Both the position numbers and the translations under genes were made by a program. A stretch of 64,000 bases of DNA from Candidatus Daviesbacteria bacterium. Lineage in GTDB: Bacteria; Patescibacteriota; Microgenomatia; Daviesbacterales; UBA10151. Shown here piece after piece: positions 3,077 through 54,485 of this stretch. How positions within the stretch are numbered: the stretch's first letter is position 1; the number at the start of each line of letters is the position of its first letter. Location: positions 14,607-78,606 of the forward strand of contig JACPKL010000001.1 in assembly GCA_016187035.1 (NCBI GenBank). Reading direction: 5' to 3'. The notes below the pieces were generated by a model. That model was not told the DNA's origin. It made no database searches and was given only the letters and a program-made list of their open reading frames with translations.

Positions 3077-3085
3077 AATTCTATT

Positions 3086-3122
3086 GTCATCGCGAGCGAT
3101 TAGCGTGGCGATCTTCTAGTGC
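3086..3122. repeat. Palindromic element family A, half copy
   Basis: GTCATCGCGAG-CGATTAGC-GTGGCGATCTTC. The left terminus plus core half is retained and the right half is absent. Confidence 0.65.
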
Positions 3123-3914
3123 CTTGATTATCTGTTCATGCACTACCCCATTTGAGGCTATAATATTTAACCTGTCTTTAGTCCAGTCTATTTCTTTACC
3201 CTCAAAATCAGTCACTTTCCCCCCTGCTTCCTCTATAATAACAGCCCCAGCTGCAAAATCCCAAATCCAGGCTTGATTTATCAAAGCATCCTGAATACCT
3301 TTACCAACTAAAACCATAGACATAGCAGCTGATCCAATTGAATAAACATGACCAACCTTATTAATTAGCGGTAAAATATACAGATTAGTTTTCAATGCTC
3401 TCTTTTCTAAATGCCCATAATCTAATATTACTCCCGCTCTATCTAGACTTGCCCTTTTACTGACAATTATTATCTTTTTGTTAACAAAAGCTCCTGATCC
3501 AACCTCAGCCCAGTATAAATCCTTACTTAACACATGATAAATCACTCCTAAAATTGGCTTATCCCCCTTAAGAAGACCAATTGAGACTGCAAAATAAGGC
3601 ATACCAATTGAGAAAGAAAAGGTACCATCCAATGGATCTATAACCCAGGTATAATCGCAGTTTCCTTGTATCCTTCCGCTCTCTTCTGCAATTATATTTG
3701 ACTCCGGAAAGTTTTGAGTAAGAATTTGAACAATTTTTTCTTCTGCTTGAAGGTCTGCCTGGGTAGTAAAATCGCTCTTATCATTATTCTTATAATTTAA
3801 TTTGTGTTCTTTGCCAAAATACTTAAATATGATTTCCCCAGCCTCCAAAGCAGCCTGTTTAGCAACTTTTAAATATTCATCTTTCATGGTGGAGCAATTG
3901 TACCACTTCTTCAT
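3087..3914 (-). CDS. suhB: Inositol monophosphatase family protein (SuhB-like)
   Basis: WVIDPLDGTFSF and WDFAAGAVIIEEAGG motifs. A more likely start is the ATG at 3887 (MKDEYLKVAK). The last ~11 codons (EDRHANRSR) and the stop codon lie in a half copy of palindromic element family A. Confidence 0.8.
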   Translation of the reverse strand: MKKWYNCSTMKDEYLKVAKQAALEAGEIIFKYFGKEHKLNYKNNDKSDFTTQADLQAEEKIVQILTQNFPESNIIAEESGRIQGNCDYTWVIDPLDGTFSFSIGMPYFAVSIGLLKGDKPILGVIYHVLSKDLYWAEVGSGAFVNKKIIIVSKRASLDRAGVILDYGHLEKRALKTNLYILPLINKVGHVYSIGSAAMSMVLVGKGIQDALINQAWIWDFAAGAVIIEEAGGKVTDFEGKEIDWTKDRLNIIASNGVVHEQIIKALEDRHANRSR

Positions 3915-4515: not shown

Positions 4516-4519
4516 GAAT

Positions 4520-4640
4520 AATTTTTAATTTTAAGTTTTAAATTTTAATTGAATTTTAAATGTTTTAATGTTTTAAAATTTAATCATTTAGTCATTAAGA
4601 TTTGATTTTAAATTTAAAATTTGTACTTTAAAATTAATAC
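4520..4640. repeat. AT-rich intergenic array of degenerate heptamers (NTTTTAA-like)
   Basis: aatttta attttaa gttttaa attttaa ttgaatt ttaaatg ttttaat gttttaa ... between the PRTase start and the EndoQ stop. Confidence 0.55.
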
Positions 4641-4641
4641 T

Positions 4642-6021
4642 TTAATCAAATAACCCCAATTGCGGAATTTCATTCTTTTCCTCTTTTACAGATTCATCAT
4701 CAGACTGCCAAATTTTCACTACCCCATATACTCCATCATAACCAGGATCTATCACTAAATCACCGTCTCTGTCTTTTTTTACTCCTTCTGCAATTCTTTC
4801 TCCTGAGATTTTAGCTATTTCCTGAATGTCTACTTTGGTCAGAATCTTGATCTCACTACCTAAAGCAGTTGTTAGCTTTTTGTATTCATTTAAGACCTTC
4901 TGGGTTGTTGGAGCAGTATTAAAAGCCTCTGCTATTACCTGTAATAATGGTACTAACATTCTATATTCTGGCCTATCTAGGTTTTTGCTTTTAACCACCC
5001 CTTCTTCTTTAATTTCCCCTAACTCCTCTGCTCCTCTGTCTGCTAACTTCTCCACTCTTTCCATTACTCCTATTGTCAAACCTCTTTTGCAAACAGGACA
5101 GGTTGTTCCCTTAAGTTTTGAATCCTGCGGAGCATACTTAACATTACAATTTCTATGTCCTGTGTAGTGATACTTGCCTTCTTCAGGATAAAACTCAATT
5201 GTCCCAATCACTTTGTCATTGCGAGGGTCGCCGTGGCGACCCGTGGCAATCTCTTTTATTTCCAAGGAAGATTGCTTCGCTTTGCTCGCAATGACGGATA
5301 GTTGAGTAATAGCTCTCCATAAATTGTCATACGTAAACTCAGCCAGATCAAAAACTGTAGACTCCCTGCCTAGATTGGGTAAAGAATGAGCATCAGAAGA
5401 AGATAAAATTGATCTGTTGTCTAACTCTTTAATTCTCCAATTCATGGCCGGGGAAGAGCTTAAACCAGTTTCTATACCATAAACATATTCTGTTAAATCT
5501 TCAAAACACTCTTCCAAACTATCATAGCCGGATTCTGAACCAAATATGCCAAACCAGGGTGTCCAGGCATGCGCGCATACAAAAATAGCCTTGTCTGAAA
5601 CCTGCAAAGCTAAACTTAACAAATCTTTGGAAGATATTCCCACAATTGGTCTGCCGTCTGAGCCTAAATTAGCCCTTCTTGAAAGAAGTTCTTTTTGAAA
5701 CCTTTCTGCTGATGAGAAATCCGGTAAGTAAACTAAATTATGCACCCTTCTGCCCCTGCCTTTGTGAGAATAAATTGAAGCAATTTCTACAGTTAATAAA
5801 AATTTAACACTTGGATCTTTAGGATAAGTTAAAAAACCTGAGCCATCTTCTTTAAGCTGATTTTTAAGTTCTGTTAACCAAAGCGGATGCAGAAAATCTC
5901 CTGTACCTAATAAATCTATACCTTTCAGCTTACACCACTGCACCAAATTAGGAACATTCAGTTGTTGTGAACAAGCCCTGGAATACCTGGAATGAATATG
6001 CAAATCTGCAATATATGCCAT
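4642..6021 (-). CDS. Endonuclease Q-like PHP-domain nuclease with zinc finger
   Basis: MAYIADLHIHSRYSRA, GTGDFLHP, AHAWTPW, SSSDAHS, GKYHYTGHRNC..CPVCKRG and a C-terminal IDPGYDGVYG, collinear with archaeal EndoQ as I recall it. Carries an 81-bp in-frame palindromic element. Confidence 0.8.
   Translation of the reverse strand: MAYIADLHIHSRYSRACSQQLNVPNLVQWCKLKGIDLLGTGDFLHPLWLTELKNQLKEDGSGFLTYPKDPSVKFLLTVEIASIYSHKGRGRRVHNLVYLPDFSSAERFQKELLSRRANLGSDGRPIVGISSKDLLSLALQVSDKAIFVCAHAWTPWFGIFGSESGYDSLEECFEDLTEYVYGIETGLSSSPAMNWRIKELDNRSILSSSDAHSLPNLGRESTVFDLAEFTYDNLWRAITQLSVIASKAKQSSLEIKEIATGRHGDPRNDKVIGTIEFYPEEGKYHYTGHRNCNVKYAPQDSKLKGTTCPVCKRGLTIGVMERVEKLADRGAEELGEIKEEGVVKSKNLDRPEYRMLVPLLQVIAEAFNTAPTTQKVLNEYKKLTTALGSEIKILTKVDIQEIAKISGERIAEGVKKDRDGDLVIDPGYDGVYGVVKIWQSDDESVKEEKNEIPQLGLFD
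5215..5295. repeat. Palindromic element family A, 81 bp, in-frame in the EndoQ-like gene
   Basis: GTCATTGCGAG-GGTCGCCGTGGCGACCC-GTGGCAATCTC..GGAAGATTGC-TTCGCTTTG-CTCGCAATGAC. Translated as SVIASKAKQSSLEIKEIATGRHGDPRNDK. Confidence 0.9.
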
Positions 6022-6041: not shown

Positions 6042-7829
6042 TCACCTTTTAAACTGCTGATTATACATCTCAATCAATTCTTTAACAGTGGTGGCATCTT
6101 CCCCTCTCTTATCAGCTTCCCTGAATTTAATCAATCTGGGAAACCTTAAAGCATATCCTGGTTCACTATTTTCTTTACCAGCAGTGTGCAGGGGCGAACG
6201 GGTGATTTCATCTGCTAATACTTCAATTACTATTTTAGGTTCAACCCAAACACTTGGAACTATTAAAGAATTAACTCTGGTCGGTTTACTTTGAACTTTG
6301 AACTTTGAACTTTGAACTTGTATCTCTCTCCATTCTTCATCTGATAAACCTGTTCCTATTTTTGAAACAGTCACGAATTCATCTTTTAACTCATCATAAA
6401 CACCAACCAACAAAGCACCTGCTCCAAACTCCGCTCTTTTACCCTTGCCATAAATATAACCTAACATTACACAATCTATAGTATCTTGTAACTGCCCTGA
6501 GGAATGCCTTTTTAATTTCACCCAGTTAAAATTTCTGGCTCCGGCTGAATAAACCGAAGTCACTCTTTTAACCACTAACCCTTCAAGATTGGCAGTTAAT
6601 GCTTCTTGCAGTAACTCCTCCAAACGGTTAACCTCAATCACTATTTCACCTGGTTGAGGAATTAAAATACCGTTTTCTTTAATAGTATCTTTTAAAATCT
6701 CCATCCTCGCTTTTAAAGGTTTATTAATCAAAGATTTACCATCTTTATACATAATGTCAAAAACAAATGCTTTTAAAGGTAAGCTTTTAGCCATTTCCTC
6801 TACCTTGTACTTTCTTCTTCTTTTAGTAGTTTCCTGAAATGGTAAAAACTCATCTGAGGCAGGATTATAAGCTAACGCCTCGGCATCTAATATAATTGTT
6901 TGAGCCTGAACCTGATTGTAAACTGCCTCAATCAGTTCGGGAAACATATGAGTTGTCTCTTCTAAATTACGGGAGAAAATTCTAACTACTTTTCCATCCT
7001 TATGCAGCTGTGTTCTAAATCCATCAAATTTTTTCTGAACATGAGCTTCTCCTTCAAACTTTTCCAAAATAGTTTTAGCATCAGGCAATCTTTCTGCCAG
7101 CTGGGATCTGATGGGCCTGCCTACTTTGACATCCAGTTTTTGCACTCCTGCCAAACCCTTGGTCCATAAAGTCTCCCCAATCAACCCTAAATCAGATGTT
7201 TTATTGTATGCTTCTTCTAAACTTGATCTTTGCTTGCGATCTCCTAATTTTGCCAAAGCAAATGCATCTAAAATGGTCGGATCACCAATTCCTAACCTGG
7301 ATACTCCCAAAGGAATCCTGACCAAATGTTTGCCAGATACCCCATTAACCTGTTTTAATAAATCAGCCAGGGTGGAAACTTTTTTCTCTACAGTTCCCTC
7401 ACCTTGAGTTTGTGCTATACCTCTTAAAATCTCAAAGACTTCTTTAACTGTCATTCCGAGGTCCGATGAAATCGGACCGTGGGAATCTTTCTTAGTTAAG
7501 ATTGCCACGTCGTCCCGATTTAATCGGGACTCCTCGCAATGACGTTGGGCAACCAATCCTAAATCCCCTACTTTTCCATATTCTTTTAAAACCTCTTCCC
7601 TTTCCATCCCATAAGCCCTGGCAATAGCAGCAGCTATCAGCTTCTCACTCATACCAATTTCGATGGCTTCATAAAAAGGAGCTACCCTGCCCTGGATTAA
7701 ATAACTCACATGTCCAATCTCCCCAACATTCACTTTAGAAAAAAGCTCAGCCAAAATATCAATTAAAGAGAGTCTGGAGGATGTCTGTTCTAATTTTTCA
7801 AAATACTCAGCTAAGGTGGAAAAAGTCAT
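6042..7829 (-). CDS. lig: ATP-dependent DNA ligase (archaeal/eukaryotic type)
   Basis: Adenylation motif I KFDGFRTQLHK, EGLVVK, and an OB-fold C-terminus. Contains one family-A palindromic element and a heptamer tract, both in-frame. Confidence 0.9.
   Translation of the reverse strand: MTFSTLAEYFEKLEQTSSRLSLIDILAELFSKVNVGEIGHVSYLIQGRVAPFYEAIEIGMSEKLIAAAIARAYGMEREEVLKEYGKVGDLGLVAQRHCEESRLNRDDVAILTKKDSHGPISSDLGMTVKEVFEILRGIAQTQGEGTVEKKVSTLADLLKQVNGVSGKHLVRIPLGVSRLGIGDPTILDAFALAKLGDRKQRSSLEEAYNKTSDLGLIGETLWTKGLAGVQKLDVKVGRPIRSQLAERLPDAKTILEKFEGEAHVQKKFDGFRTQLHKDGKVVRIFSRNLEETTHMFPELIEAVYNQVQAQTIILDAEALAYNPASDEFLPFQETTKRRRKYKVEEMAKSLPLKAFVFDIMYKDGKSLINKPLKARMEILKDTIKENGILIPQPGEIVIEVNRLEELLQEALTANLEGLVVKRVTSVYSAGARNFNWVKLKRHSSGQLQDTIDCVMLGYIYGKGKRAEFGAGALLVGVYDELKDEFVTVSKIGTGLSDEEWREIQVQSSKFKVQSKPTRVNSLIVPSVWVEPKIVIEVLADEITRSPLHTAGKENSEPGYALRFPRLIKFREADKRGEDATTVKELIEMYNQQFKR
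6288..6320. repeat. Heptamer tract ACTTTGA x4.7 (in the ligase gene)
   Basis: ACTTTGAACTTTGAACTTTGAACTTTGAACTTG encodes VQSSKFKVQSK. Confidence 0.85.
7450..7543. repeat. Palindromic element family A, 94 bp, in-frame in the DNA ligase gene
   Basis: GTCATTCCGAG-GTCCGATGAAATCGGAC-CGTGGGAATCT..AGATTGCCACG-TCGTCCCGATTTAATCGGGAC-TCCTCGCAATGAC. Translated as RHCEESRLNRDDVAILTKKDSHGPISSDLGMT. Confidence 0.9.
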
Positions 7830-9305: not shown

Positions 9306-9818
9306 TCACAAAATGGTATTAATGGTATTAGCAGTTAAACGATTGACTTCCATTACCACCACCCACTTCTCTATTCCCAAATCTTTAATATATAATTCCA
9401 ATTTATCAAAAACGTTTCTTTTGCTCACCCAAACACTTTTTTGTAAATGCTTAAAACCCCATTTTTTAAGATTTCTTCTAAATAAGTTTCTGATAATTCT
9501 TTTTTGTTCTGGAATATCAAATATTACTATCCTCCACTTTCCATCCCAATCTTTCTCTTCATAATTATCACTGATTAATTCCTTTCCAGCTTGAGTCAGT
9601 TTTATTATTACATCATCCTTGACTTTTGTCTGTTCAATCAACCCCCCTTCCCTTAGTCTTCTTAACGCTTGGGATAAAGAGGATTTCCTAAGCTCAGGGA
9701 TTCCGTATCTGTAACGGTAATGATGATAGGTAAAATCTTCTAAACGAACATAACCATCCACTGTTTTTTCCAATACCAGAAGAATCTTATTTGTCAAACT
9801 CTTTTTATAAACCCTCAT
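9306..9818 (-). CDS. Small PaaX-like regulator (N-terminal wHTH plus Cas2-like/PaaX middle domain)
   Basis: WDGKWRIVIFDIPEQKRIIRNLFRRNLKKWGFKHLQKSVWVS matches the PaaX/Cas2-fold pattern. N-terminal wHTH (LSQALRRLREGGLIE). Paralog at 25795-26310. Confidence 0.6.
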   Translation of the reverse strand: MRVYKKSLTNKILLVLEKTVDGYVRLEDFTYHHYRYRYGIPELRKSSLSQALRRLREGGLIEQTKVKDDVIIKLTQAGKELISDNYEEKDWDGKWRIVIFDIPEQKRIIRNLFRRNLKKWGFKHLQKSVWVSKRNVFDKLELYIKDLGIEKWVVVMEVNRLTANTINTIL

Positions 9819-24179: not shown

Positions 24180-24962
24180 CTAAATTACTTTAACTAATTT
24201 GCCCCCTTTTAGAACGCTTTTTAAAATAAAGGCAAAAAAGATAATTGATAAAGTTAGATAAATGATATTTAAGATTAAAGAGTGCCAAAAAAGATTAGTA
24301 TTAAACTGTCCGCTGACAATCACATACCTCATTCCCTCAAATACATGAGAGATAGGAATCAGGTAAGCTATTTTTTGGAAAACTGGGGGTAAAACAGACA
24401 GCGGGTAAAAAACTGCGGCAAATGGCTGAACTAAAAAAGGGATAATCCAGGTTAAAGGCCCGATTGAGTGGCCAAATCGCAGTACCAGAGCAATATTAAA
24501 AATACCAAAAGAAGCAGCAAACATAAACAGATTGACAGCAAACAAAGCTAAGCCAAAACCTAAACTAGTAATTTGAAAATTATAGAAAATTGCAGCAATC
24601 AGTCCCATCATTGAAAAAGCAAAGAAAATCTTAATCAAGCTGACAATTACCAGTGCTGCTAAATACTCTACAAAAGTAATAGGGGTAGATATGACATTAA
24701 TAAAATTCCTATCCCAGATATCAAACATAAAATTCACTCCTATATCTGTTCCTACTTTCTCAAAGATAATCCAAAGCAGTATTCCTCCTAACAAAAATGC
24801 AGCCAGGGTTTGCGACTGTAGGGTTTGAACATACTTTGTCATAAATCCCCATAACATTACCATCAGAACAGGAGAAATTAAAACATCAAAAAACCTCTCA
24901 AGCTGCCGCAGAGAAAGAAAATAATGCCTTAAAATAATGGCTGAAATTCTGTTGATATTCAT
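24180..24962 (-). CDS. ABC-2 type transporter permease
   Basis: Six-TM ABC-2 permease. Paralog of 47632-48423 with the same N-terminus (MNINRI.A.I.R). Confidence 0.8.
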   Translation of the reverse strand: MNINRISAIILRHYFLSLRQLERFFDVLISPVLMVMLWGFMTKYVQTLQSQTLAAFLLGGILLWIIFEKVGTDIGVNFMFDIWDRNFINVISTPITFVEYLAALVIVSLIKIFFAFSMMGLIAAIFYNFQITSLGFGLALFAVNLFMFAASFGIFNIALVLRFGHSIGPLTWIIPFLVQPFAAVFYPLSVLPPVFQKIAYLIPISHVFEGMRYVIVSGQFNTNLFWHSLILNIIYLTLSIIFFAFILKSVLKGGKLVKVI

Positions 24963-25705
24963 TGTTGTCTTGATAACTGTATGAAAACATCTCTTAAATT
25001 TGGTTCAGCTGCTTCACCTTTTAAAACCTGCTGGGTTAACTGCAAAGGACTACCCTGGGCAATAATCTTTCCATGGTTAATAAAAACAACGTCAGAGGCC
25101 ATCTCTTCTATTTCCCACATATTATGGGAGGTATATAAAATACTCATCTTTTCCTCTATTTGGATTTGTTTAATTAAACTTATCCCTTTATCCACCACAT
25201 CAGGGTCCATTGAAGCCATTGGTTCATCTAAAAGTAAAAGTTTTGGTTTATTAAGCAAAGCTTTGCATAAGTTTCCTCTGGCTCTTTGTCCAAAAGATAG
25301 GTCACGGATAGCCTTGGTCTTAAGATGGCTCATCTCAAAAACATCCAATAATTCTGTTATCCTTTTTTTAAGATCCCAAACCTCATATAACCTGCCGTAC
25401 ACCAGTAAACATTCCCATAAAGACAAATTCCAGGGCAAACTATATTCAGCTGAAGCATAGTTTACCTGCTTTAAAATCTCTGATCTGTTTTTTTTAACAT
25501 CTTCACCAAAAATGTTAATGCTCCCAAAATCAGGATCAACCAAACCTAAAATACAATAAATAGTGGTTGACTTACCTGCACCGTTAGGGCCTAAAAAGCC
25601 TAAAATTTGCCCTTCCTCTAAACTGAAAGAGATATCTTCAATGGCAACAAATTGGCCAAAAGTCTTCTTCAAATTTTTAACCTCTAAAATTATTTTTGTC
25701 ACCAA
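24959..25705 (-). CDS. ABC transporter ATP-binding protein
   Basis: Walker A GPNGAGKST, signature-like LSFGQRAR, Walker B LLLLDEP. Confidence 0.9.
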   Translation of the reverse strand: MVTKIILEVKNLKKTFGQFVAIEDISFSLEEGQILGFLGPNGAGKSTTIYCILGLVDPDFGSINIFGEDVKKNRSEILKQVNYASAEYSLPWNLSLWECLLVYGRLYEVWDLKKRITELLDVFEMSHLKTKAIRDLSFGQRARGNLCKALLNKPKLLLLDEPMASMDPDVVDKGISLIKQIQIEEKMSILYTSHNMWEIEEMASDVVFINHGKIIAQGSPLQLTQQVLKGEAAEPNLRDVFIQLSRQQ

Positions 25706-25794: not shown

Positions 25795-26310
25795 TTATTG
25801 TATGTCCAGAGGACCATACTTTTCAGATTCAAAAACCCATACCCACTTCTCCACTCCTAAATCTCTAATATAATTGAATAATTTATCAGTAACGTTCTTT
25901 TTGGAAATCCAGACACTTTTTTGAAAATGTTTAAAACCCCATTTTTTTAAATTCCTTCTAAAAAGATCTCTTATCAACCTCTTTTGTTCTGGTATATCAA
26001 AAATCACTATTCTCCATTTTCCATCCCAACTTGCTGTACCATCACCAGTCAGCAATATCACTGTCTTACCTTCATCTGTCAATTTCAAAACCACTTGACC
26101 GATATCTTTCTTGTCAGTTTCTATCAGACCCTTCTCTTTTAACCTGGCAATAGCCTTAGATAAAGCAGATTTCTTCAGCTCAGGAATCCCATATCTGTAG
26201 CGATAATGATGGTAGGTAAAATCTTCTAAACGTACATAACCATCAATACTTTTTTCTAAAAAAGTCAAAAGGCTATAACTCAAACTTCCTCTTCTAACCT
26301 CCATACCCAT
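25795..26310 (-). CDS. Small PaaX-like regulator, paralog 2
   Basis: WDGKWRIVIFDIPEQKRLIRDLFRRNLKKWGFKHFQKSVWIS. Long identical blocks with 9306-9818 (YVRLEDFTYHHYRYRYGIPEL). Sits directly upstream of the ABC pair. Confidence 0.6.
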   Translation of the reverse strand: MGMEVRRGSLSYSLLTFLEKSIDGYVRLEDFTYHHYRYRYGIPELKKSALSKAIARLKEKGLIETDKKDIGQVVLKLTDEGKTVILLTGDGTASWDGKWRIVIFDIPEQKRLIRDLFRRNLKKWGFKHFQKSVWISKKNVTDKLFNYIRDLGVEKWVWVFESEKYGPLDIQ

Positions 26311-28231: not shown

Positions 28232-28317
28232 GTCATTGCGAGGGATGTACCATACGGTACGTCCCGTGGCAATCTTCCTACTTGAGGTGGAAGATTCCTC
28301 ACTACGTTCGCAGTGAC
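28232..28317. repeat. Palindromic element family A, intergenic copy (86 bp)
   Basis: GTCATTGCGAG-GGATGTACCATACGGTACGTCCC-GTGGCAATCTTCC-tacttgaggt-GGAAGATTCCTCAC-..TTCGCAGTGAC. The right terminus is degenerate. Lies between fba and glpX. Confidence 0.85.
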
Positions 28318-37022: not shown

Positions 37023-39347
37023 TTAATTTTCCTCCGGCTTCATTTCTCCCCAAGTTTTGCCTGCTTTTAAATCAACTACCACTGGTACTGATAATTCTAG
37101 AGCATTTTCCATTTTTTCTTTGACCATTTTAGCAATCTGGCGGACTTGTGGTGAGCCTGCCGAACCATCACATTCAAACAAAAGCTCATCATGAACTTGA
37201 AGAATTAACTTACAGTTATCAGTTTTCGGTTTTCTGTTTTCAGATATTGGTTTGCCGGTTTTCTGTTTACCAGATTGACTGATAACTGATGAACTTTCAT
37301 CCGACGACTGACCACTGAGAACCGATAACTCCTTATCAATTTCCACCATAGCCTTTTTAATCATGTCAGCTGAAGATCCCTGAATAGGATGATTAATTGC
37401 TGCTCTTTCTCCTTGAGATCTGATCATTCTATTTGAGGCTTTTAGCTCCGGCATATATCTTTTTCTACCCCAGATAGTCTCTACATAACCATTTTCATAC
37501 CCAAAAGCTAAAGTTTGCTCCATCCATTCCCGTACTTTAGGAAACTGCTCAAAATATTCCACTATGTATTGACGGGCTACTTCATATTCCACTCCTAGTT
37601 GCCTGCTTAAAGCATGTGGACCCTGGCCATAAAGAGTAGCAAAATTCATGGTTTTCCCAACATTTCTTTGCTCATAAGAAACCTTTCCCACAGGTACTTT
37701 AAAGATCTTTGCAGCAGTGGCGCTGTGGATATCCAAGCCTGCTAAAAAAGCCTGTTTTAATCCTGGATCATCTGCCAGATGAGCCATAATCCGAAGTTCT
37801 ATCTGAGAATAATCAGCTCCAAATAATACTTTTCCCTTGGGAGCAATAAAGGCTTTTCTGACCTCTCCTCCAAGTGTACCCCTGATTGGGATATTTTGAA
37901 GGTTGGGGTCCTGGGAAGAAACACGTCCTGTGGCAGCTCCTTCCACATTAAAAGTAGAATGTATTCTGCCGTCTTCCCCAACTGATTTTGGTAAAGCGTC
38001 AATATAGGTGGAAACTAACTTGAAAAGTTGGCGGTATTCCAACAAAAGGGGTACAGCAGGGTGAGCTATAGATAATTCTTTCAAAGTCTCCTCATTTGTT
38101 GACCTGCCGGTTTTGGTTTTTTTAAAAACAGGCAATTTTAACTCGTCAAAAAGCACTACCTGCAGTTGTTTTGGGCTGTTCAGATTAAACTGATGACCTA
38201 TTTTAGAGTAAATTTCTTTTTCAATATTAGTTAATTTAGCTTTTAAATCGGTCCCAAGCTTATTTAAAAACTTAAGATTTATTAATATTCCTGACTTGGA
38301 CATTTTTTCCAAAACCGGCTGGACTTGGAGATCTAAATCAGTAGTGTCATTGCGAGGAAGTTTACCCTGAGCCGATTCGGCCTGAGGGCTCACGGCCTCG
38401 AAGGCTTGTCGAAGGGTGGCAATCTTCCCACTTGAGGTGGAAGATTCCCACGGCCCTTCGGGCCTCGGAATGACAGGAAAAGGTAATCTGTTTATCAAGC
38501 TCTTAAATTCCAATTCTTCGAATAATTCTCTTACCTTATTAGCATCGTAATCATGTACTCTACAAGCTGCTAAATCTAGCTTGACAGGGGCATTTGTATC
38601 TAGAGTAGCTAATTTTTTACTCATCACAGCTGATTCTGCTCCCTCGGCCAGTAACTTTTGCATTCTTTCGGGTAAGGTCTTCAAATTTTTAGGCAAGTAG
38701 ATTTTCTCAATAGAACCGAATTGGTGAATCAATTTAGTGGCTGTTACATCTCCTATACCAGCTACCCCTGGAATGTTATCTGAAGCATCTCCTGCCAAAG
38801 CTTTGTAATCTATCATCTGAGGAGGCATAAAACCATATTTAGCTACAAACTCCTCTACTCCATAAAGGCCCACATCCTGTAAAGTTTTTTTTGGCATTAA
38901 TACTTTAATATTTTCATCAATCAGCTGCATAATATCCCTGTCACCCGTGACTATTATAACTTCTAATTTTTGAGCTTTGAGCTTTGAGCTTTGAGTTGCC
39001 AAAGCGCCTATTAAATCATCTGCCTCATAACCTGACAGCCTAAACTCAGGAATATTAAAAGCTTTCACTACCTGATAAACCCTATCATACTGGGAAGATA
39101 AACCATCATCAGCCGGTCCCCTGGTAGCTTTATACTGAGTGTAAGCTTGATGCCTGAATGTTGGCCCTTTTTCATCCCAGGCAATGGCTAAAAAATCAGG
39201 TTTTAATTCATTTAAAGTCCGAAGAAGCATTGAGGAAAAACCATATACAGCATTAATTAACTCACCATAAGATGTGGAAAAAGGAGGAGTGGCGTGATAA
39301 GCCCGATGAAGTAAAGCATTCCCATCAACCAAAACCAAATGTTTCAT
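37023..39347 (-). CDS. polA: DNA polymerase I: 5'-nuclease plus polymerase domains, no 3'-5' exonuclease domain
   Basis: N-terminal 5'-3' exonuclease (VLVDGNALLHRAYHA, GDRDIMQL, GVAGIGDVTATKLI). Pol A motifs DYSQIELRI, RNVGKTMNFATLYG and QVHDELLFE. The two domains are joined by a translated 129-bp palindromic element. A second ~40-aa heptamer-derived insert precedes QVHDE. Confidence 0.9.
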   Translation of the reverse strand: MKHLVLVDGNALLHRAYHATPPFSTSYGELINAVYGFSSMLLRTLNELKPDFLAIAWDEKGPTFRHQAYTQYKATRGPADDGLSSQYDRVYQVVKAFNIPEFRLSGYEADDLIGALATQSSKLKAQKLEVIIVTGDRDIMQLIDENIKVLMPKKTLQDVGLYGVEEFVAKYGFMPPQMIDYKALAGDASDNIPGVAGIGDVTATKLIHQFGSIEKIYLPKNLKTLPERMQKLLAEGAESAVMSKKLATLDTNAPVKLDLAACRVHDYDANKVRELFEELEFKSLINRLPFPVIPRPEGPWESSTSSGKIATLRQAFEAVSPQAESAQGKLPRNDTTDLDLQVQPVLEKMSKSGILINLKFLNKLGTDLKAKLTNIEKEIYSKIGHQFNLNSPKQLQVVLFDELKLPVFKKTKTGRSTNEETLKELSIAHPAVPLLLEYRQLFKLVSTYIDALPKSVGEDGRIHSTFNVEGAATGRVSSQDPNLQNIPIRGTLGGEVRKAFIAPKGKVLFGADYSQIELRIMAHLADDPGLKQAFLAGLDIHSATAAKIFKVPVGKVSYEQRNVGKTMNFATLYGQGPHALSRQLGVEYEVARQYIVEYFEQFPKVREWMEQTLAFGYENGYVETIWGRKRYMPELKASNRMIRSQGERAAINHPIQGSSADMIKKAMVEIDKELSVLSGQSSDESSSVISQSGKQKTGKPISENRKPKTDNCKLILQVHDELLFECDGSAGSPQVRQIAKMVKEKMENALELSVPVVVDLKAGKTWGEMKPEEN
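37212..37330. repeat. Degenerate heptamer array with inverted ends (CAGTTATCAG / CTGATAACTG) in polA
   Basis: CAGTTAT CAGTTTT CGGTTTT CTGTTTT CAGATAT TGGTTTG CCGGTTT TCTGTTT ACCAGAT TGACTGA TAACTGA ... encodes LSGQSSDESSSVISQSGKQKTGKPISENRKPKTDN just upstream of QVHDELLFE. Confidence 0.7.
38346..38474. repeat. Palindromic element family A, 129 bp, in-frame in polA
   Basis: GTCATTGCGAG..(extra GC-rich hairpins CCTGAGCCGATTCGGCCTGAGGGCTCACGGCCTCGAAGGC)..GTGGCAATCTTCCCACTTGAGGTGGAAGATTCCCAC-GGCCCTTCGGGCC-TCGGAATGAC. Translated as VIPRPEGPWESSTSSGKIATLRQAFEAVSPQAESAQGKLPRND. Confidence 0.9.
38971..38995. repeat. Heptamer tract TGAGCTT x3.5 (in polA)
   Basis: TGAGCTTTGAGCTTTGAGCTTTGAG encodes SKLKAQKLE. 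Confidence 0.85.
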
Positions 39348-46900: not shown

Positions 46901-47635
46901 ATGACAGATGTAATTTTAGAGGTAAAAAATTTAAGAAAGAAGTTTGGCAAATTTGAAGCTGTCAAAGGAATCAGCTTTAATTTAAAAAAGGGTGAAATCT
47001 TAGGATTGTTAGGCCCCAATGGAGCTGGTAAAACCACTACTATCCAGTCTATTTTAGGCTTGATTCATCCTACCTCCGGTGTAGTTTCAATTTTTGGTAA
47101 AAAAATGCCCGGGGACAGGGAGGAAATTTTATCCCGTGTTAATTTTTCTTCTGCTTATGTTTCTTTGCCTACTAATCTAAAAATTTGGGAGAATTTATAC
47201 ACCTTTGCCAGATTATATAATGTACCTGACTTTAAACAAAAAGTAAAAGATTTGGCAGGCTTTTTCCAAATTAATGATTTAATGGGCAAAATGTATGGTA
47301 CCCTATCCTCTGGCCAAGCCACCAGAGTAAATCTGGTTAAAGCTCTGCTTAATTCTCCCCAGTTATTATTTTTAGATGAACCAACTGCCTCTTTGGACCC
47401 TGATATTGCTGACAGGGTAAGAAGGTATTTAAAAATTTTTCAAAAACAGGATAATTTAACTATTCTTTATACTACCCATAATATGGGGGAGGTGGAGGAA
47501 CTTTGTGACCGTGCTATTTTTATTAATGAGGGCAAAATTATTACCCAAGGCACACCTAAACAGTTGGTTAGAAGGTTTGGGAAAAAGGATCTAAATGAAG
47601 TATTCATTAAAATTGCCAGGGAGAAACACCTGTGA
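46901..47635 (+). CDS. ABC transporter ATP-binding protein (paralog of 24959-25705)
   Basis: ATG at 46901 (MTDVILEVKNL) is preferred over the TTG at 46847. Walker A GPNGAGKTT, LSSGQATR, LLFLDEP. Confidence 0.85.
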   Translation: MTDVILEVKNLRKKFGKFEAVKGISFNLKKGEILGLLGPNGAGKTTTIQSILGLIHPTSGVVSIFGKKMPGDREEILSRVNFSSAYVSLPTNLKIWENLYTFARLYNVPDFKQKVKDLAGFFQINDLMGKMYGTLSSGQATRVNLVKALLNSPQLLFLDEPTASLDPDIADRVRRYLKIFQKQDNLTILYTTHNMGEVEELCDRAIFINEGKIITQGTPKQLVRRFGKKDLNEVFIKIAREKHL

Positions 47636-48423
47636 ACATTAACCGTATTTATGCTTTGATAATGCGTTATTTATATCTTTATCCCCGTTCTGTTCCCAGA
47701 ATTTTGGATATTTTCTTCTGGCCAATGGTGGAACTTTTGATTTGGGGCTTTTTAACTTTATATTTACAGCAATCCAGACTGGCTATTCCCAATTTCATTA
47801 CTGCTTTACTGGGAGCTTTAATATTTTGGAATTTTATCCAAAGATCCCAGCAGGCTGTATCCATTGCTTTTTTGGAAGAAGTTTGGGAAAGAAATTTATT
47901 AAATATTTTTGTCACCCCTTTAAGAATTAGTGAATTCCTAATAGCAACTGTTTTTGTGGGTATAGTCAGGCTTATCTTGATTGGGTTAACCCTGGGTGTG
48001 CTGGCCTATTTATTATTTAAGTTTAATATTTTCTTTTTTGGCTTTTTACTTATCCCTTTTATATTAAATCTATTTTTGTTTGGCTGGATTTTAGGACTGC
48101 TTGCCACTTCAATTATCATGAGGTTTGGCCAGAGTGCCCAGGTATTGGCTTTTGCCCTCACCCTACTTTTACAACCCTTTATGGCGGTTTTTTATCCGGT
48201 ATCAGTTTTACCTAAGGCTTTACAATATTTTGCTAACCTGATTCCAGCCACCCATGTTTTTGAAGGAATGAGAGTAGTGGTATTTAGCGGACAGATACCA
48301 TTAACCAGTTTATTTTTTGCAACCGTGCTAAACATCGTCTGGTTTATTATTGCCATAATAATATTTTTTAAAATGTTTGATTATATTTTGGAAACAGGAC
48401 AACTGATGAAGCTGGTAGATTAA
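47632..48423 (+). CDS. ABC-2 type transporter permease (paralog of 24180-24962)
   Basis: MNINRIYALIMRYLYL..., collinear with the other permease (..ATHVFEGMRVVV versus ..ISHVFEGMRYVI). Confidence 0.8.
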   Translation: MNINRIYALIMRYLYLYPRSVPRILDIFFWPMVELLIWGFLTLYLQQSRLAIPNFITALLGALIFWNFIQRSQQAVSIAFLEEVWERNLLNIFVTPLRISEFLIATVFVGIVRLILIGLTLGVLAYLLFKFNIFFFGFLLIPFILNLFLFGWILGLLATSIIMRFGQSAQVLAFALTLLLQPFMAVFYPVSVLPKALQYFANLIPATHVFEGMRVVVFSGQIPLTSLFFATVLNIVWFIIAIIIFFKMFDYILETGQLMKLVD

Positions 48424-53252: not shown

Positions 53253-54485
53253 TCACTTAACTCCATATGCTAACTCCACCATGATTTTTGCAGTTGAAGT
53301 CATTGGAGTCTCCCTGCCAAATATATGAAAATCAAACCCTTCCTTACGGCCTACTCTTTTTAGCTCCTCAAAAGCTTCCTGATCCCTTGGCCCGCCTCTT
53401 CTTATCACAATTGGGTAAGCAGGCTTTGGTTTAATTTCCCTAAGCCCTTCTACAAAGCCCATTAAAGTTTCATAAATATCAGTAAAATTGGCTGTGCCTC
53501 CCACAAACCAACAACCCTTAAGTCCTGGTTTTCCTAGAACAATTTTAGTTAATTTTTTCAATTTTTCTCTGGGAGGGTTGCCTGAGTGTTCAGTATAATT
53601 AGCCGCCCTTCCTCCAAAAGTTACTAAAGCATCCATGTTAACTATAGACCCTCCACCTCCTGCAGCAATGACTGCAATGTCTCCATCCCGAAGGTCCCAA
53701 TAAACAGAGCCTGCAGTACCTCTGTGATCTCCTTCATCTATTTTTCTGGCTTCAATTTCAGCCTCAGTTGGGGGTCTGCCAAACAAATTTCTTTGGGGAA
53801 ATTTAATTTCCCTTCTAAAGTCTGCATCATCGTCCAAGATAACTTTGGCATCTAAAGCATAGACTCTCTTGTCATTGCGAGGTCCGCCCTGGCGGACCGT
53901 GGCAATCTTTCCATTTGAGATGGAAGATTCCTCGCTTATGCTCGGAATGACAGAAGTGGTAGAAACTACCAAAGGATTTATTTCTGCCAGTTCTAAGTCA
54001 TATTTTGTGAATACCTCCCAAAGCTCTGTAATAGTATCTGTAAATTGGACATAATGTTCAACGATCGTTGAAGGTAACGTCATATTTAGAGGATCAACAG
54101 GAAAACTCTCTGCGCCTTTTTCCTCTACTCCTGTCCCACCTTTGCCAAAAGTTAACACAGGTCCTCTTGTTGCTGTGGAGTATGAGAAAGACAGATAATA
54201 CTCCTTACCAACATCAACCATTTGTTCAACTAAAACCTTCTCCACCTTCTCATTGTTAATTGTCTTTGAAAGTAATTCTTCAATCTTAAATCTTAAATCT
54301 TCCATCTTCTCTACCACCAAAATCCCCCCAGCTTGTGCTCTTTTTCCAGACAAAACTTGAGCTTTCAAAACCAAAGGAAGTTTTAAGGTTACTTCCTGAT
54401 CTGCAGATTCTAAGAGTTGTGACTGGGGAACATTAATCCCACAACTTTTAAAAAGTTGTTTGCCTTCAAATTCGAAGAGTTGCAT
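53253..54485 (-). CDS. Succinyl-CoA synthetase beta-subunit / ATP-citrate-lyase beta-like ATP-grasp protein
   Basis: N-terminal ATP-grasp (MQLFEFEGKQLFKSCGI). C-terminal ligase-CoA-like IAAGGGGSIVNMDALVTFGGRAANYTEHSGNP. Carries an 81-bp family-A element in-frame between the halves. Confidence 0.75.
   Translation of the reverse strand: MQLFEFEGKQLFKSCGINVPQSQLLESADQEVTLKLPLVLKAQVLSGKRAQAGGILVVEKMEDLRFKIEELLSKTINNEKVEKVLVEQMVDVGKEYYLSFSYSTATRGPVLTFGKGGTGVEEKGAESFPVDPLNMTLPSTIVEHYVQFTDTITELWEVFTKYDLELAEINPLVVSTTSVIPSISEESSISNGKIATVRQGGPRNDKRVYALDAKVILDDDADFRREIKFPQRNLFGRPPTEAEIEARKIDEGDHRGTAGSVYWDLRDGDIAVIAAGGGGSIVNMDALVTFGGRAANYTEHSGNPPREKLKKLTKIVLGKPGLKGCWFVGGTANFTDIYETLMGFVEGLREIKPKPAYPIVIRRGGPRDQEAFEELKRVGRKEGFDFHIFGRETPMTSTAKIMVELAYGVK
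53871..53951. repeat. Palindromic element family A, 81 bp, in-frame in the SucC-like gene
   Basis: GTCATTGCGAG-GTCCGCCCTGGCGGAC-CGTGGCAATCTTTCCATTTGAGATGGAAGATTCCTC-GCTTATG-CTCGGAATGAC. Translated as SVIPSISEESSISNGKIATVRQGGPRNDK. Confidence 0.9.
54285..54301. repeat. Heptamer tract CTTAAAT x2.4 (in the SucC-like gene)
   Basis: See 4229-4259. Confidence 0.8.

What the first reader, a model, noticed from the sequence alone, without database searches (positions are those of the whole stretch)
5215..5295. 81-bp family-A element in-frame in the EndoQ-like nuclease
Seen: exactly 27 codons (SVIASKAKQSSLEIKEIATGRHGDPRNDK) sit between the PHP-domain end (..LWRAITQL) and the GKYHYTGH..CPVC zinc-finger region. 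The flanking sequence is collinear with archaeal EndoQ as I recall it, and EndoQ has only a short loop at this point.
Basis: partly seen in the sequence, partly recalled or inferred. Interest (0 to 1): 0.6.

Follow-up and report, generated by a model that had tools for sequence, protein, structure and literature searches.

The report
Palindromic repeat translated inside a repair nuclease
An 81-base palindromic repeat of a known, widespread bacterial type (a pair of "CGTC-tagged" hairpin repeats, the kind first seen as Rickettsia palindromic elements) sits in frame in the flexible linker of an EndoQ DNA-repair nuclease of a Candidatus Daviesbacteria genome, probably harmlessly. The case is ordinary in kind but comes from a new phylum and a new host gene.

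Summary
Window 5215-5295 is an 81-nt element with perfect 11-nt inverted ends (GTCATTGCGAG/CTCGCAATGAC). It lies in frame as 27 codons in ORF 4642-6021(-), a clear EndoQ homologue (PfuEndoQ E=4e-47; model TM 0.82). It sits between the last PHP-domain helix and the strand leading into the Zn-binding domain. AlphaFold gives it pLDDT <50 and no secondary structure.

101 of the 120 closest orthologues lack the insert.

The element is an inverted dimer of CGTC/TGTC-tagged REP hairpins. Di Nocera et al. (2013) described this superfamily, including intragenic dimers that encode 20-30 aa and favour replication and repair genes (Rickettsia RPE-4/RPE-6).

Four more copies lie in the window: in the linkers or loops of DNA ligase, Pol I and an ATP-grasp enzyme, and one intergenic. 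A single unit supplies the last codons and the stop of an inositol monophosphatase gene.

Three results go beyond the finding:
- The same codon position in orthologous EndoQ genes carries at least five different CGTC subfamilies.
- Filled and empty alleles differ by a recombined patch, not a clean insertion.
- The hairpin arms are identical at the nucleotide level between genes whose synonymous sites are saturated.

Verdict: a new member of a known kind, of moderate interest.

The parts
4642..6021 (-). Host gene: EndoQ-family nuclease, 459 aa. [quoted passage not shown] It is 100% identical to a Candidatus Daviesbacteria protein (P0001).
   Evidence: Pfu metal ligands H8, H10, E76, H84, H139 and D193 align to H8, H10, E79, H94, H151 and D210, which are invariant in 46 orthologues.
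5215..5295 (.). The 81-nt element: an inverted dimer of two CGTC/TGTC-tagged REP-like hairpin units. It is read through on the minus strand as residues 243-269 (VIASKAKQSSLEIKEIATGRHGDPRND).
   Evidence: Flank bases T5214 and G5296 complete the tags TGTC (+ strand unit) and CGTC (- strand unit).
5215..5253 (+). REP unit 1, read on the + strand: GTC tag, 5-bp outer stem ATTGC/GCAAT, internal loop, inner hairpin, tail CTC. In the gene this is the 3' arm (KEIATGRHGDPRND).
   Evidence: The stretch is 39/40 identical to the orthologous copy in L085, although the two genes are only 71% identical.
5225..5242 (.). Copy-specific inner hairpin GGGTCGCC-GT-GGCGACCC inside unit 1.
   Evidence: I3. The same hairpin is found only in the orthologue L085 among 330 loci, and nowhere in IMG/VR. 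It is replaced by the compensated GTCCGCC/GGCGGAC in L081.
5254..5267 (.). 14-nt spacer between the two units. This is the variable part.
   Evidence: the spacer is diverged between the window, L085 and L081 while the arms are conserved.
5268..5295 (-). REP unit 2, read on the - strand: CGTC-ATTGC-GAGCAAAGCGAA-GCAAT-CTT. This is the short form without the inner hairpin. In the gene it is the 5' arm (VIASKAKQSS).
7450..7543 (.). A second dimer of the same family, in frame in the ATP-dependent DNA ligase gene (6042-7829, -). It is read in another frame (RHCEESRLNRDDVAILTKKDSHGPISSDLGMT).
38346..38474 (.). A 129-nt dimer of the same family, in frame in DNA polymerase I (37023-39347, -). It lies between the 5'-3' exonuclease domains and the polymerase domain.
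53871..53951 (.). An 81-nt dimer of the same family, in frame in an ATP-grasp/citrate-binding (SucC-like) protein (53253-54485, -). It lies between the two Pfam domains.
   Evidence: (D4, 74% identical to 5213-5298).
28232..28317 (.). An intergenic dimer of the same family, between the class-I FBP aldolase gene and the GlpX FBPase gene.
3085..3116 (+). A single TGTC-tagged unit (TGTC-ATCGC-...-GCGAT-CTT). It supplies the last ~9 codons and the TGA stop of the inositol monophosphatase gene (3087-3914, -).

Best explanation
The 81 bases are a non-autonomous palindromic repeat of the CGTC-tagged REP superfamily. It consists of two hairpin units in inverted orientation, with the tags (C/T)GTC at the outer ends, each stem opening with A-T pairs, and a short spacer between the units.

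**Shown**
- The element lies in the EndoQ gene at the connection between the PHP domain and the Zn-binding domain.
- It keeps the reading frame and has no stop codon.
- The hairpin arms are kept at the nucleotide level, while the spacer, the flanking codons and the synonymous sites diverge.
- Filled and empty alleles differ by a patch of diverged sequence, not only by the element.

**Inferred**
- The element is transcribed and translated with the gene. It adds a 27-residue disordered surface loop and leaves the enzyme working. The peptide itself has no function.
- The copy survives because it landed in one of the few places in the protein that tolerate extra residues.
- The constraint on the arms acts on DNA (hairpin or cruciform) and not on the mRNA.
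- The filled linker moves between related Daviesbacteria as a patch by homologous recombination.
- Related CGTC subfamilies have repeatedly occupied, or replaced one another at, this same position.

The enzyme that moves these repeats is unknown here, as it is for the whole CGTC superfamily.
For: **Element anatomy**
- Perfect 11-nt inverted ends and an inner hairpin. Fold z = -6.4.
- Family copies occur 10 times against 0.39 expected.
- In 263 non-redundant family copies, position -1 is C 64% / T 31% and position +1 is G 66% / A 30%. There is no target-site duplication. This matches the published CGTC/TGTC tag, the stems starting with AT, the CCA-like tail, the preference for dimers and the lack of a transposase (PMC3733652).

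**Host gene is intact**
- PfuEndoQ E=4e-47. All metal ligands are invariant (with PMC5961232). Model pTM 0.74, and Foldseek gives TM 0.82 to 5zb8/7k30.
- Filled alleles are as conserved outside the site as empty ones (0.743/0.744/0.755 identity).

**Loop location**
- Residues 243-268 have pLDDT <50 and no secondary structure. They lie between helix 231-239 and strand 271-277.
- The same alignment column carries inserts in other Microgenomates.

**Read through, not spliced**
- All 22 intragenic copies examined restore the host frame and lack stops, whatever their own length mod 3.
- The family at large shows no preference for multiples of 3 (88/103/91).

**Peptide not selected**
- The same arms are read in different frames in different genes (VIAS.., RHCEE.., SSLR..).

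**Nucleotide-level constraint on the arms**
- Window against L085: the right arm is 39/40 identical, the best 40-nt window in a gene that is 71% identical overall.
- B-type copies in L082, L331 and L332: arms 26-27 of 27 identical, spacer 57-71%, genes 69-71%.
- Among identical amino acids, 17-18 of 18 codons are identical in the arms against about 50% elsewhere (p = 3e-6 to 6e-5).

**DNA, not mRNA**
- G-U pairs number 33 on the sense strand against 44 on the antisense strand. The sense strand is the more stable in 8 of 22 cases.

**Patch exchange**
- L082 (filled) and L329 (empty) are about 90-95% identical across most of the gene. They are near-random over about 55 nt upstream and about 20 nt downstream of the element.
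- The nearest relatives of filled proteins are empty ones.
Against: - There are no expression or proteomic data, so translation of the loop and activity of the enzyme are inferred.
- The structure model is only moderate (mean pLDDT 72). It does not show whether the loop faces the DNA-binding side. The loop ends 14 residues before K283/Y284, the counterparts of Pfu K243/Y244, which matter for cleavage (PMC5961232).
- Family-A units do not meet the published stem and loop sizes (8-9 bp, 4-5 nt). They have a 5-bp outer stem, an internal loop and an inner stem.
- No mobilising enzyme and no autonomous parent were found.
- The arm conservation could reflect recent re-insertion from a circulating pool rather than constraint at this locus.
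- The neighbour-joining tree used for non-monophyly is poorly resolved, because the sequences are nearly equidistant.
Confidence: 0.78

Rival explanations
1. The hairpin arms are functional for the host at this locus, for example as a binding or processing site for a DNA enzyme, or as a structure that modulates replication, recombination or expression of repair genes. On this view the element is kept by host-level selection and is not merely tolerated.
For: - Arms are invariant at synonymous sites in three orthologues whose genes are about 70% identical.
- A copy-specific inner hairpin is shared only by the window and its orthologue L085.
- The exact B-type arm occurs nowhere else in 2.5 Mb of fetched loci and only once in IMG/VR, so homogenisation against many other copies is not evident.
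- Three of the four in-frame copies in the window are in DNA-metabolism genes. This echoes the published bias towards replication and repair genes (PMC3733652).
Against: - 101 of 120 close orthologues do without any insert.
- Several alleles carry partly deleted elements (P0028, P0045, P0059, P0103).
- Occupants of unrelated subfamilies are interchangeable at the site.
- Only +/-5 kb around each gene was visible, so other genomic copies that could act as conversion donors cannot be excluded.
- The sample of host genes is small.
Confidence: 0.15
2. The 27 residues are an ancestral or lineage-specific linker of the protein that only happens to be palindromic, or they add a useful peptide (a new loop function). 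On this view they are not a mobile repeat.
For: This site is length-variable across Microgenomates EndoQ. The insert-bearing alleles share a flank type, (E)FTY[DE]GLWxAI..PS.
Against: - The same sequence family occurs in four other places in the window, in unrelated genes and in intergenic DNA.
- It occurs in at least 120 metagenome contigs and at least 120 IMG/VR contigs of 35-73% GC, and in alphaproteobacterial plasmids.
- The peptide differs completely between orthologues (A to E types, two entry frames) while the DNA arms are conserved.
- AlphaFold gives no structure for the segment.
Confidence: 0.03
3. The element is removed from the transcript (intron-like) or disables the gene, so the annotated 459-aa protein is never made in that form.
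For: The element forms a very stable hairpin in RNA as well (-36.9 kcal/mol). In one orthologous locus (L083) the neighbouring ligase gene, which carries elements, is split into two ORFs.
Against: - All 22 intragenic copies examined preserve the host frame and have no stop, although element lengths are spread evenly over the three classes mod 3 in the family at large. This is unnecessary if the element were spliced out.
- There is no Rfam match to any ribozyme or intron.
- The rest of the gene is under the same constraint as in insert-free orthologues, and the catalytic residues are intact.
Confidence: 0.04

Closest known systems
CGTC-tagged REPs (Di Nocera, De Gregorio & Rocco 2013, BMC Genomics 14:522; PMC3733652), including Rickettsia conorii RPE-4/RPE-6 and Neisseria dRS3
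   Same: - An unpaired terminal CGTC or TGTC tag.
- Stems that open with A-T pairs, and a short tail (CCA-like).
- Mostly inverted dimers with a spacer.
- No target-site duplication and no linked transposase.
- Intragenic dimers that add 20-30 residues, lie in linkers and are frequent in replication and repair genes (Pol I is named in the paper and is hit here too).
- The B-type element at this very site in orthologues (TGTC-ATTCCTGC-GAAT-GCAGGAAT-CCA) has the canonical 8-bp stem and 4-nt loop.
   Different: - The host phylum (Patescibacteria/CPR, Microgenomates, Ca. Daviesbacteria) is not among the five phyla listed.
- The host genes EndoQ and ATP-dependent DNA ligase are new.
- The window's 'family A' units have an interrupted stem (5 bp, internal loop GA/GWR, then an inner stem of 2-8 bp) instead of 8-9 bp with a 4-5 nt loop. 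The tail is CTY and the spacer is only 14 nt.
- Occupation of one codon position by several subfamilies, and nucleotide-frozen arms, were not reported.
Rickettsia palindromic elements (RPE-1 and others; Ogata et al. 2000 Science 290:347, as summarised in PMC10969869)
   Same: Palindromic repeats inserted in frame in many unrelated housekeeping genes. They are read through and are predicted to be compatible with fold and function.
   Different: - RPE-1 is about 150 bp and confined to Rickettsia.
- The peptides here give no hit to any NCBIfam model.
- The organism here is a free-living or episymbiotic CPR bacterium.
- By my recollection, not tested here, RPEs are usually treated as decaying relics. 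Here the arms are conserved at synonymous sites.
REPINs/BIMEs with RAYT transposases (GTAG-tagged REP doublets)
   Same: Doublets of short hairpin repeats in inverted orientation that can fold into one long hairpin. They have no target duplication and are presumed to be handled as single-stranded DNA hairpins.
   Different: The tag is CGTC, not GTAG. No RAYT or other Y1 transposase is linked (not found here; reported absent for CGTC repeats in PMC3733652). REPINs are almost entirely extragenic.
[quoted passage not shown]
   Same: Small, non-coding, with terminal inverted repeats and many copies. They can create in-frame fusions (PMC10969869).
   Different: No target-site duplication. No parent insertion sequence with the same ends in 2.5 Mb of loci. 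The whole element is palindromic, not only its ends.

Membership tests
CGTC-tagged REP superfamily (PMC3733652) | Unpaired terminal tetranucleotide CGTC (variants TGTC, CCTC) | tested here: met
   Window: T5214+GTC gives TGTC, and the reverse complement of GAC+G5296 gives CGTC. In 263 family copies, position -1 is C 64% / T 31% and position +1 is G 66% / A 30%.
CGTC-tagged REP superfamily (PMC3733652) | Stem opens with complementary A-T pairs in the first and second positions | tested here: met
   ATTGC...GCAAT in both units. The same holds in all subfamilies at the EndoQ site (ATTCCTGC, ATTCTGAA, ATGCCGAA).
CGTC-tagged REP superfamily (PMC3733652) | Stem of 8-9 bp and loop of 4-5 nt | tested here: not met
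   The window units have a 5-bp outer stem, an internal loop, and an inner stem of 2 or 8 bp. The feature is met by the B-type element at the same site in L082, L331 and L332 (8 bp, 4 nt). The paper itself notes that bulged units may have escaped its survey.
CGTC-tagged REP superfamily (PMC3733652) | Three-base unpaired tail, mostly CCA | tested here: inconclusive
   The window tails are CTC and CTT. Many metagenomic family-A copies and the B-type have CCA or CC.
CGTC-tagged REP superfamily (PMC3733652) | Units mostly paired in inverted orientation with a spacer | tested here: met
   All five full copies in the window are inverted dimers, and there is one singleton at 3085-3116. The spacer here is 14 nt, against the 20-100 nt usual in the paper. 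I could not check which of the paper's labels, HH or TT, applies, because the figures are not held.
CGTC-tagged REP superfamily (PMC3733652) | No dedicated transposase next to the repeats | tested here: inconclusive
   No long element bounded by the same ends was found in 2.5 Mb of fetched loci. Only 8 of about 60 window ORFs were scanned against Pfam, and the rest of the genome was not seen.
Rickettsia palindromic elements (RPE) | Palindromic repeat inserted in frame in protein-coding genes and read through | tested here: met
   (frame kept, no stops). Translation itself was not tested.
Rickettsia palindromic elements (RPE) | Sequence membership in an RPE family / Rickettsia host | tested here: not met
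   The seven element-encoded peptides gave no hit to any NCBIfam model at E<=10. I believe that library includes RPE domain models, but I did not verify it. The host is Ca. Daviesbacteria. The only link to RPE-4/RPE-6 is the shared CGTC architecture reported in PMC3733652.
MITE | Target-site duplication flanking terminal inverted repeats | tested here: not met
   Direct-repeat matches of 1-6 nt at the flanks are at control level (k=3: 3 against 3.2; k=2: 16 against 6.7).
EndoQ family (host protein) | PHP domain with two-metal site, Zn-binding domain and C-terminal helical domain, collinear with PfuEndoQ | tested here: met
   phmmer E=4e-47 over residues 4-440. Foldseek TM 0.82 to 5zb8. The ligands are conserved. 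The first Zn-finger Cys is His in this clade. TIGR00375 scores 153.7, below its curated cut-off of 326.6. Activity was not tested.

The most novel reading that the evidence does not exclude
CGTC-tagged hairpin repeats in these reduced CPR genomes are not decaying passengers.
- At fixed intragenic sites their arms are held invariant at the nucleotide level while everything around them diverges.
- Different subfamilies that share only the YGTCAT ends replace one another at exactly the same codon. This is seen in EndoQ, and again at a site in the neighbouring DNA ligase.

That pattern would imply an as yet unknown hairpin-specific DNA transaction that exchanges cassettes without disturbing the flanks. 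Alternatively it implies a host-level DNA function placed preferentially in replication and repair genes.
Probability: 0.2. Interest if true: 0.7.

Novelty: new member of a known kind. Interest (0 to 1): 0.4.

Why it matters
- The case extends in-frame palindromic repeats (the Rickettsia RPE / CGTC-REP phenomenon) to the Candidate Phyla Radiation and to EndoQ and ATP-dependent DNA ligase.
- It explains part of the odd length variation and the 'hypothetical' low-complexity peptides in CPR proteins. This matters for annotation, for alignments and for structure prediction of these proteomes.
- The orthologous series at this one site offers a natural experiment on an open question raised in 2013: are CGTC repeats, which have no known transposase, still active, and what maintains them? 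The series includes empty alleles, five subfamilies and partly deleted copies. The arms are frozen while the spacers drift, and the flanks are exchanged by recombination.

Tried and rejected
- **Rfam scan of the whole window:** only three tRNAs, nothing at the element.
- **Literature searches** for the end sequences, the encoded peptides, and CPR/Patescibacteria with MITE or palindromic terms: nothing relevant. The key paper surfaced only through an RPE search.
- **NCBIfam scan of seven element-encoded peptides:** no hit.
- **Search for an autonomous parent** (the same 11-nt ends 300-5000 nt apart) in 2.5 Mb of loci: the few candidates were separate small elements or an inverted duplication (L103). 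No transposase was found.
- **Tandem arrays in L121 and L157** looked CRISPR-like by spacing. They are plain tandem duplications of element plus flank, with identical 'spacers'.
- **mRNA-structure hypothesis:** no excess of G-U pairs or of stability on the sense strand.
- **Arm-to-arm covariation in family A:** only a weak signal (own-arm score -1.34 against -1.96 for random pairing). Most dimers pair a short unit with a long one.
- **Generic scan for single units with 5-nt stems:** not specific (12 found against 11 in shuffles). Real units were recognised by tag, tail and the GAG...GWR motif.
- **Monophyly of insert-bearing orthologues:** rejected by nearest-neighbour identities. Only a neighbour-joining tree was possible, because no maximum-likelihood program was available.
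- **The idea that 'KIAGT' in empty alleles is a remnant of the element's AAGATTGCC core:** rejected. (K/Q/R)IA(G/F/Y)T is conserved in distant Microgenomates EndoQ.
Full report
**1. The observation**

Window 5215-5295 reads GTCATTGCGAG GGTCGCCGTGGCGACC CGTGGCAATCTC TTTTATTTCCAAGG AAGATTGCTTCGCTTTG CTCGCAATGAC.

- The two ends are a perfect 11-nt inverted repeat. An inner 8-bp hairpin lies at 5225-5242.
- The end motif, with at most one mismatch, occurs 10 times in the 64-kb window against 0.39 expected.
- The 81 nt fold into a closed multibranch hairpin: -36.9 kcal/mol as RNA (z = -6.4) and -22.6 kcal/mol as DNA on either strand (z about -6). None of 200 shuffles does as well.
- On the minus strand the element is exactly 27 codons (VIASKAKQSSLEIKEIATGRHGDPRND, residues 243-269) of the 459-aa ORF 4642-6021.

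The quoted peptide has one extra residue at each end.

**2. The host gene**

The ORF is 100% identical to a Candidatus Daviesbacteria protein (Microgenomates, CPR). That protein is annotated 'DNA helicase UvrD', and close relatives are annotated 'endonuclease Q family protein'.

- It matches Pyrococcus furiosus EndoQ at E = 4e-47 in two collinear blocks: query 4-239 to Pfu 4-224, and query 277-440 to Pfu 237-385. Where Pyrococcus has 12 residues, this protein has 37.
- The published domain limits are PHP 1-238, Zn-binding 239-303 and C-terminal helical 304-400 (PMC5961232). The insert therefore lies at the PHP/Zn-domain junction.
- The Pfu metal ligands H8, H10, E76, H84, H139 and D193 align to H8, H10, E79, H94, H151 and D210. 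All of these are invariant in 46 orthologues.
- The zinc finger is H289-C292-C308-C311, with His replacing the first Cys of the archaeal C4 site.
- An AlphaFold model built from the orthologue alignment (pTM 0.74) matches 5zb8 and 7k30 with target-normalised TM 0.81-0.83.
- In that model residues 243-268 have pLDDT below 50 and no secondary structure. They lie between helix 231-239 and strand 271-277.

**3. Orthologues with and without the insert**

Of the 120 closest proteins (65-76% identical), 101 have no insert. They read ...F(E/R)(A/D)IK-(E/N)QKIAGTIEFYPEEGKYH and are about 431-432 aa long. Nineteen carry extra residues at exactly this place. Synteny (ligase - EndoQ - phosphoribosyltransferase - inositol monophosphatase - peptidyl-tRNA hydrolase) shows that these are orthologous loci.

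The DNA at the site is palindromic in every filled case, but it belongs to different subfamilies:

| Type | Loci | Sequence |
|---|---|---|
| A | window, L081, L085 | GTCATTGCGAG...CTCGCAATGAC |
| B | L082, L331, L332 | GTC-ATTCCTGC-GAAT-GCAGGAAT-CCA...GG-ATCCCCGC-CTAC-GCGGGGAT-GAC |
| C | L084 | ATTCTGG-type stems |
| D | L086, L087 | ATTCTGAA/TTCAGAAT and ATGCCGAA/TTCGGCAT; entered one base later, read as RHSEF.. |
| E | L083 | (not listed) |
| partly deleted | e.g. L003 | right half only |

A distant Microgenomates EndoQ (L030, 44% identical) also has a full A-type element at the same column and in the same frame. Four other lineages have other hairpin-forming inserts there.

That test is not met.

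**4. What the element is**

In 263 non-redundant A-type copies from public contigs, the base before GTCAT is C (64%) or T (31%). The base after ATGAC is G (66%) or A (30%). There is no target-site duplication.

Each half of the element is therefore: (C/T)GTC, then a stem that opens with AT, then a loop, then the closing stem, then a short tail. The two halves are inverted, with the tags outermost.

This is the architecture of the CGTC-tagged REP superfamily defined by Di Nocera, De Gregorio and Rocco (2013; PMC3733652). Its published features are:
- a CGTC tag, often TGTC;
- stems that begin with A-T pairs, and a CCA-like tail;
- units mostly arranged in dimers;
- presence in five phyla, above all the Alphaproteobacteria;
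- no dedicated transposase;
- intragenic dimers that encode 20-30 residues, lie in linkers and are strikingly frequent in replication and repair genes. Pol I is among those genes.

In Rickettsia conorii these repeats are the known RPE-4 and RPE-6.

The B-type element meets even the published stem and loop sizes (8 bp, 4 nt). The window's A-type units depart from them. They have a 5-bp outer stem (ATTGC/GCAAT), a conserved internal loop (GA opposite GWR), and an inner stem that is either minimal (GC-GAA-GC) or a copy-specific 8-bp hairpin.

The A family is very widespread:
The host contigs range from 35 to 73% GC.
- It occurs in plasmids of Methylosinus, Novosphingobium (18 places in one replicon), Methylocystis and Methylobacterium.

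I found no paper describing these repeats in CPR bacteria.

**5. Other copies in the window**

| Position | Context |
|---|---|
| 7450-7543 | ATP-dependent DNA ligase, read in another frame as RHCEE...GMT |
| 38346-38474 | DNA polymerase I, between the 5'-3' exonuclease and polymerase domains |
| 53871-53951 | ATP-grasp/citrate-binding protein, between its two domains |
| 28232-28317 | intergenic, between the FBP aldolase and GlpX genes |
| 3085-3116 | single unit that provides the last ~9 codons and the TGA stop of the inositol monophosphatase gene |

Sources. Every intragenic copy therefore lies in a linker, a loop or a terminus.

The ligase shows the same behaviour as EndoQ. One site (after VGDLGLVA) carries different subfamilies in the window, L003, L083, L086 and L087, and is empty in L081, L082, L085 and L329. 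A second site (after DGFRVQIH) is filled in L081 and L083.

**6. Read through or removed?**

All 22 intragenic copies examined restore the host frame and contain no stop. Their own lengths fall in all three classes mod 3, and the entry and exit frames combine accordingly (VI.../...ND, RH.../...MT, SLR.../...ND). In the family at large, lengths show no preference for multiples of three (88/103/91). Such filtering is expected only if the copies are translated.

Outside the site, filled alleles are as conserved as empty ones (mean identity 0.743 filled-filled, 0.744 filled-empty, 0.755 empty-empty). There is thus no sign of relaxed constraint on the gene. Translation and activity are nevertheless inferred, not shown.

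**7. What is conserved is the DNA, not the peptide**

The same arms are read in different frames in different genes. The peptides at the EndoQ site are unrelated between subfamilies. At the nucleotide level, by contrast:

- *Window against L085.* The genes are 71% identical overall, with third-codon identity about 48%. The 40 nt of the right arm are 39/40 identical, the best such window in the whole gene. The single change lies in the hairpin loop. That inner hairpin is copy-specific. It occurs nowhere else in 330 loci or in IMG/VR.
- *L081.* It has the compensated variant GTCCGCC/GGCGGAC.
- *The three B-type orthologues.* The genes are 69-71% identical. The left arm is 27/27 identical in all pairs and the right arm 26-27/27. 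The spacer is 57-71% identical and the 54 nt upstream 63-70%.
- *Codon test.* Among positions with the same amino acid, 17-18 of 18 codons are identical in the arms against about 50% in the rest of the gene (p = 3e-6 to 6e-5 per pair).
- *Rarity of the B arm.* The exact sequence is otherwise absent from the 332 loci and occurs once in IMG/VR.

Pairs in the stems are about 95% Watson-Crick on both strands. There is no excess of G-U pairs or of stability on the sense strand (33 against 44 G-U pairs; sense more stable in 8 of 22). The constraint therefore looks like one on DNA, as a hairpin or cruciform or as a recognition sequence, rather than on the mRNA.

Two readings remain open. The first is selection at this locus. 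The second is that each lineage's occupant is a recent arrival from a circulating pool, in which the arms are kept because they are needed for mobility. The turnover of subfamilies favours the second.

**8. How the filled allele spreads**

With the site masked, the nearest relatives of filled proteins are empty ones. For example, P0006 is 93% identical to P0030, and P0016 is 89% identical to P0112.

At the DNA level, L082 (filled) and L329 (empty) are about 90-95% identical over most of the gene. They become unalignable from about 55 nt upstream to about 20 nt downstream of the element.

Filled alleles share the flank type (E)FTY(D/E)GLWxAI..PS-[element]-K(V/I)(V/I/A)GT. A few empty alleles have the same upstream flank (L088, L330).

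The simplest reading is that the linker with its occupant is exchanged as a patch by homologous recombination. The very conserved SDAHSLPNLGRE and EFYPEEGKYH segments would serve as anchors. The element did not simply transpose afresh into each lineage's gene. How five subfamilies came to occupy the same position within this allele class is not resolved. The options are:
- replacement at the shared YGTCAT ends;
- repeated targeting of the same position;
- strong filtering for the only tolerated position.

**9. Verdict**

In kind it is already known: an intragenic CGTC-REP dimer, the class to which RPE-4 and RPE-6 belong, sitting in a repair-gene linker.

What is new:
- the phylum;
- the host genes (EndoQ, ATP-dependent ligase);
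- the interrupted-stem unit;
- the evidence that the arms are frozen at the nucleotide level;
- the evidence that one codon position is reused by several subfamilies.

I rate it a new member of a known kind, with moderate interest (0.4).

Noticed in passing
window 7450-7543 (ligase ORF 6042-7829, -); L003, L081, L083, L086, L087: The DNA ligase gene next door has two reused insertion sites. The site after VGDLGLVA(Q/E) holds elements of different CGTC subfamilies in five orthologues and is empty in four. The site after DGFRVQIH is filled in L081 and L083.
   Followed up: partly
window 3085-3116: A single TGTC-tagged hairpin unit overlaps the 3' end of the inositol monophosphatase gene. It supplies its last ~9 codons (..DRHANRSR) and the TGA stop. 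In one of the three frames the ATGAC end of these repeats always gives a TGA.
   Followed up: partly
window 38346-38474 and 53871-53951: Two further in-frame dimers, both placed between Pfam domains. One lies in Pol I (5'-3' exonuclease | polymerase). The other lies in an ATP-grasp/citrate-binding protein. With the copies in ligase and EndoQ, three of the four in-frame copies in this window are in DNA-metabolism genes.
   Followed up: partly
window 4519-4636: An AT-rich imperfect inverted repeat of 58 nt (72% complementary, arms 2 nt apart) fills the spacer between the phosphoribosyltransferase and EndoQ genes. It is unrelated to the CGTC elements.
   Followed up: no
window 6288-6320: A short tandem run of the heptamer CTTTGAA/TTTGAAC (about four copies) lies inside the ligase coding region (..QSSKFKVQSKP..).
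   Followed up: no
window 9400-9549 vs 25880-26029; 25532-25701 vs 46902-47071; 24306-24428 vs 48172-48294: Long diverged direct and inverted repeats (71-81% identity) lie between distant parts of the window. They are probably paralogous genes. I did not examine them.
   Followed up: no
L121 3969-5019; L157 1897-2223: In two metagenome contigs an A-type element and its 33-45 nt flank are amplified together as tandem units of 121 and 124 nt (9-10 and 3 copies). The 'spacers' are identical, so these are tandem duplications and not CRISPR-like arrays.
   Followed up: yes
L063, L071, L074: Some EndoQ homologues (Desulfobacterales, Fodinibius and others) are fused to a UvrD-like helicase of about 600-700 residues. 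This probably explains the 'DNA helicase UvrD' label carried by the stand-alone Daviesbacteria proteins.
   Followed up: no
window ORF 4642-6021, residue H289: In this clade the first cysteine of the archaeal C4 zinc site (Pfu C249) is histidine, invariant in 46 orthologues. The site is therefore H-C-C-C.
   Followed up: partly
L083 3118-4983: In one orthologous contig the ligase gene, which carries two elements, is split into two ORFs (354 and 250 aa) about 50 nt apart. This may be a frameshift, a pseudogene or an assembly error.
   Followed up: no
L012 4220-4315; L010/L012/L040 alignment columns 87, 287, 435: EndoQ of other Microgenomates carries inserts at three further positions. One of them is a full A-type element (VIASEAKQSKILNQVQDDNKGIATSSSTTRND) in the PHP domain of a Curtissbacteria gene.
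   Followed up: partly
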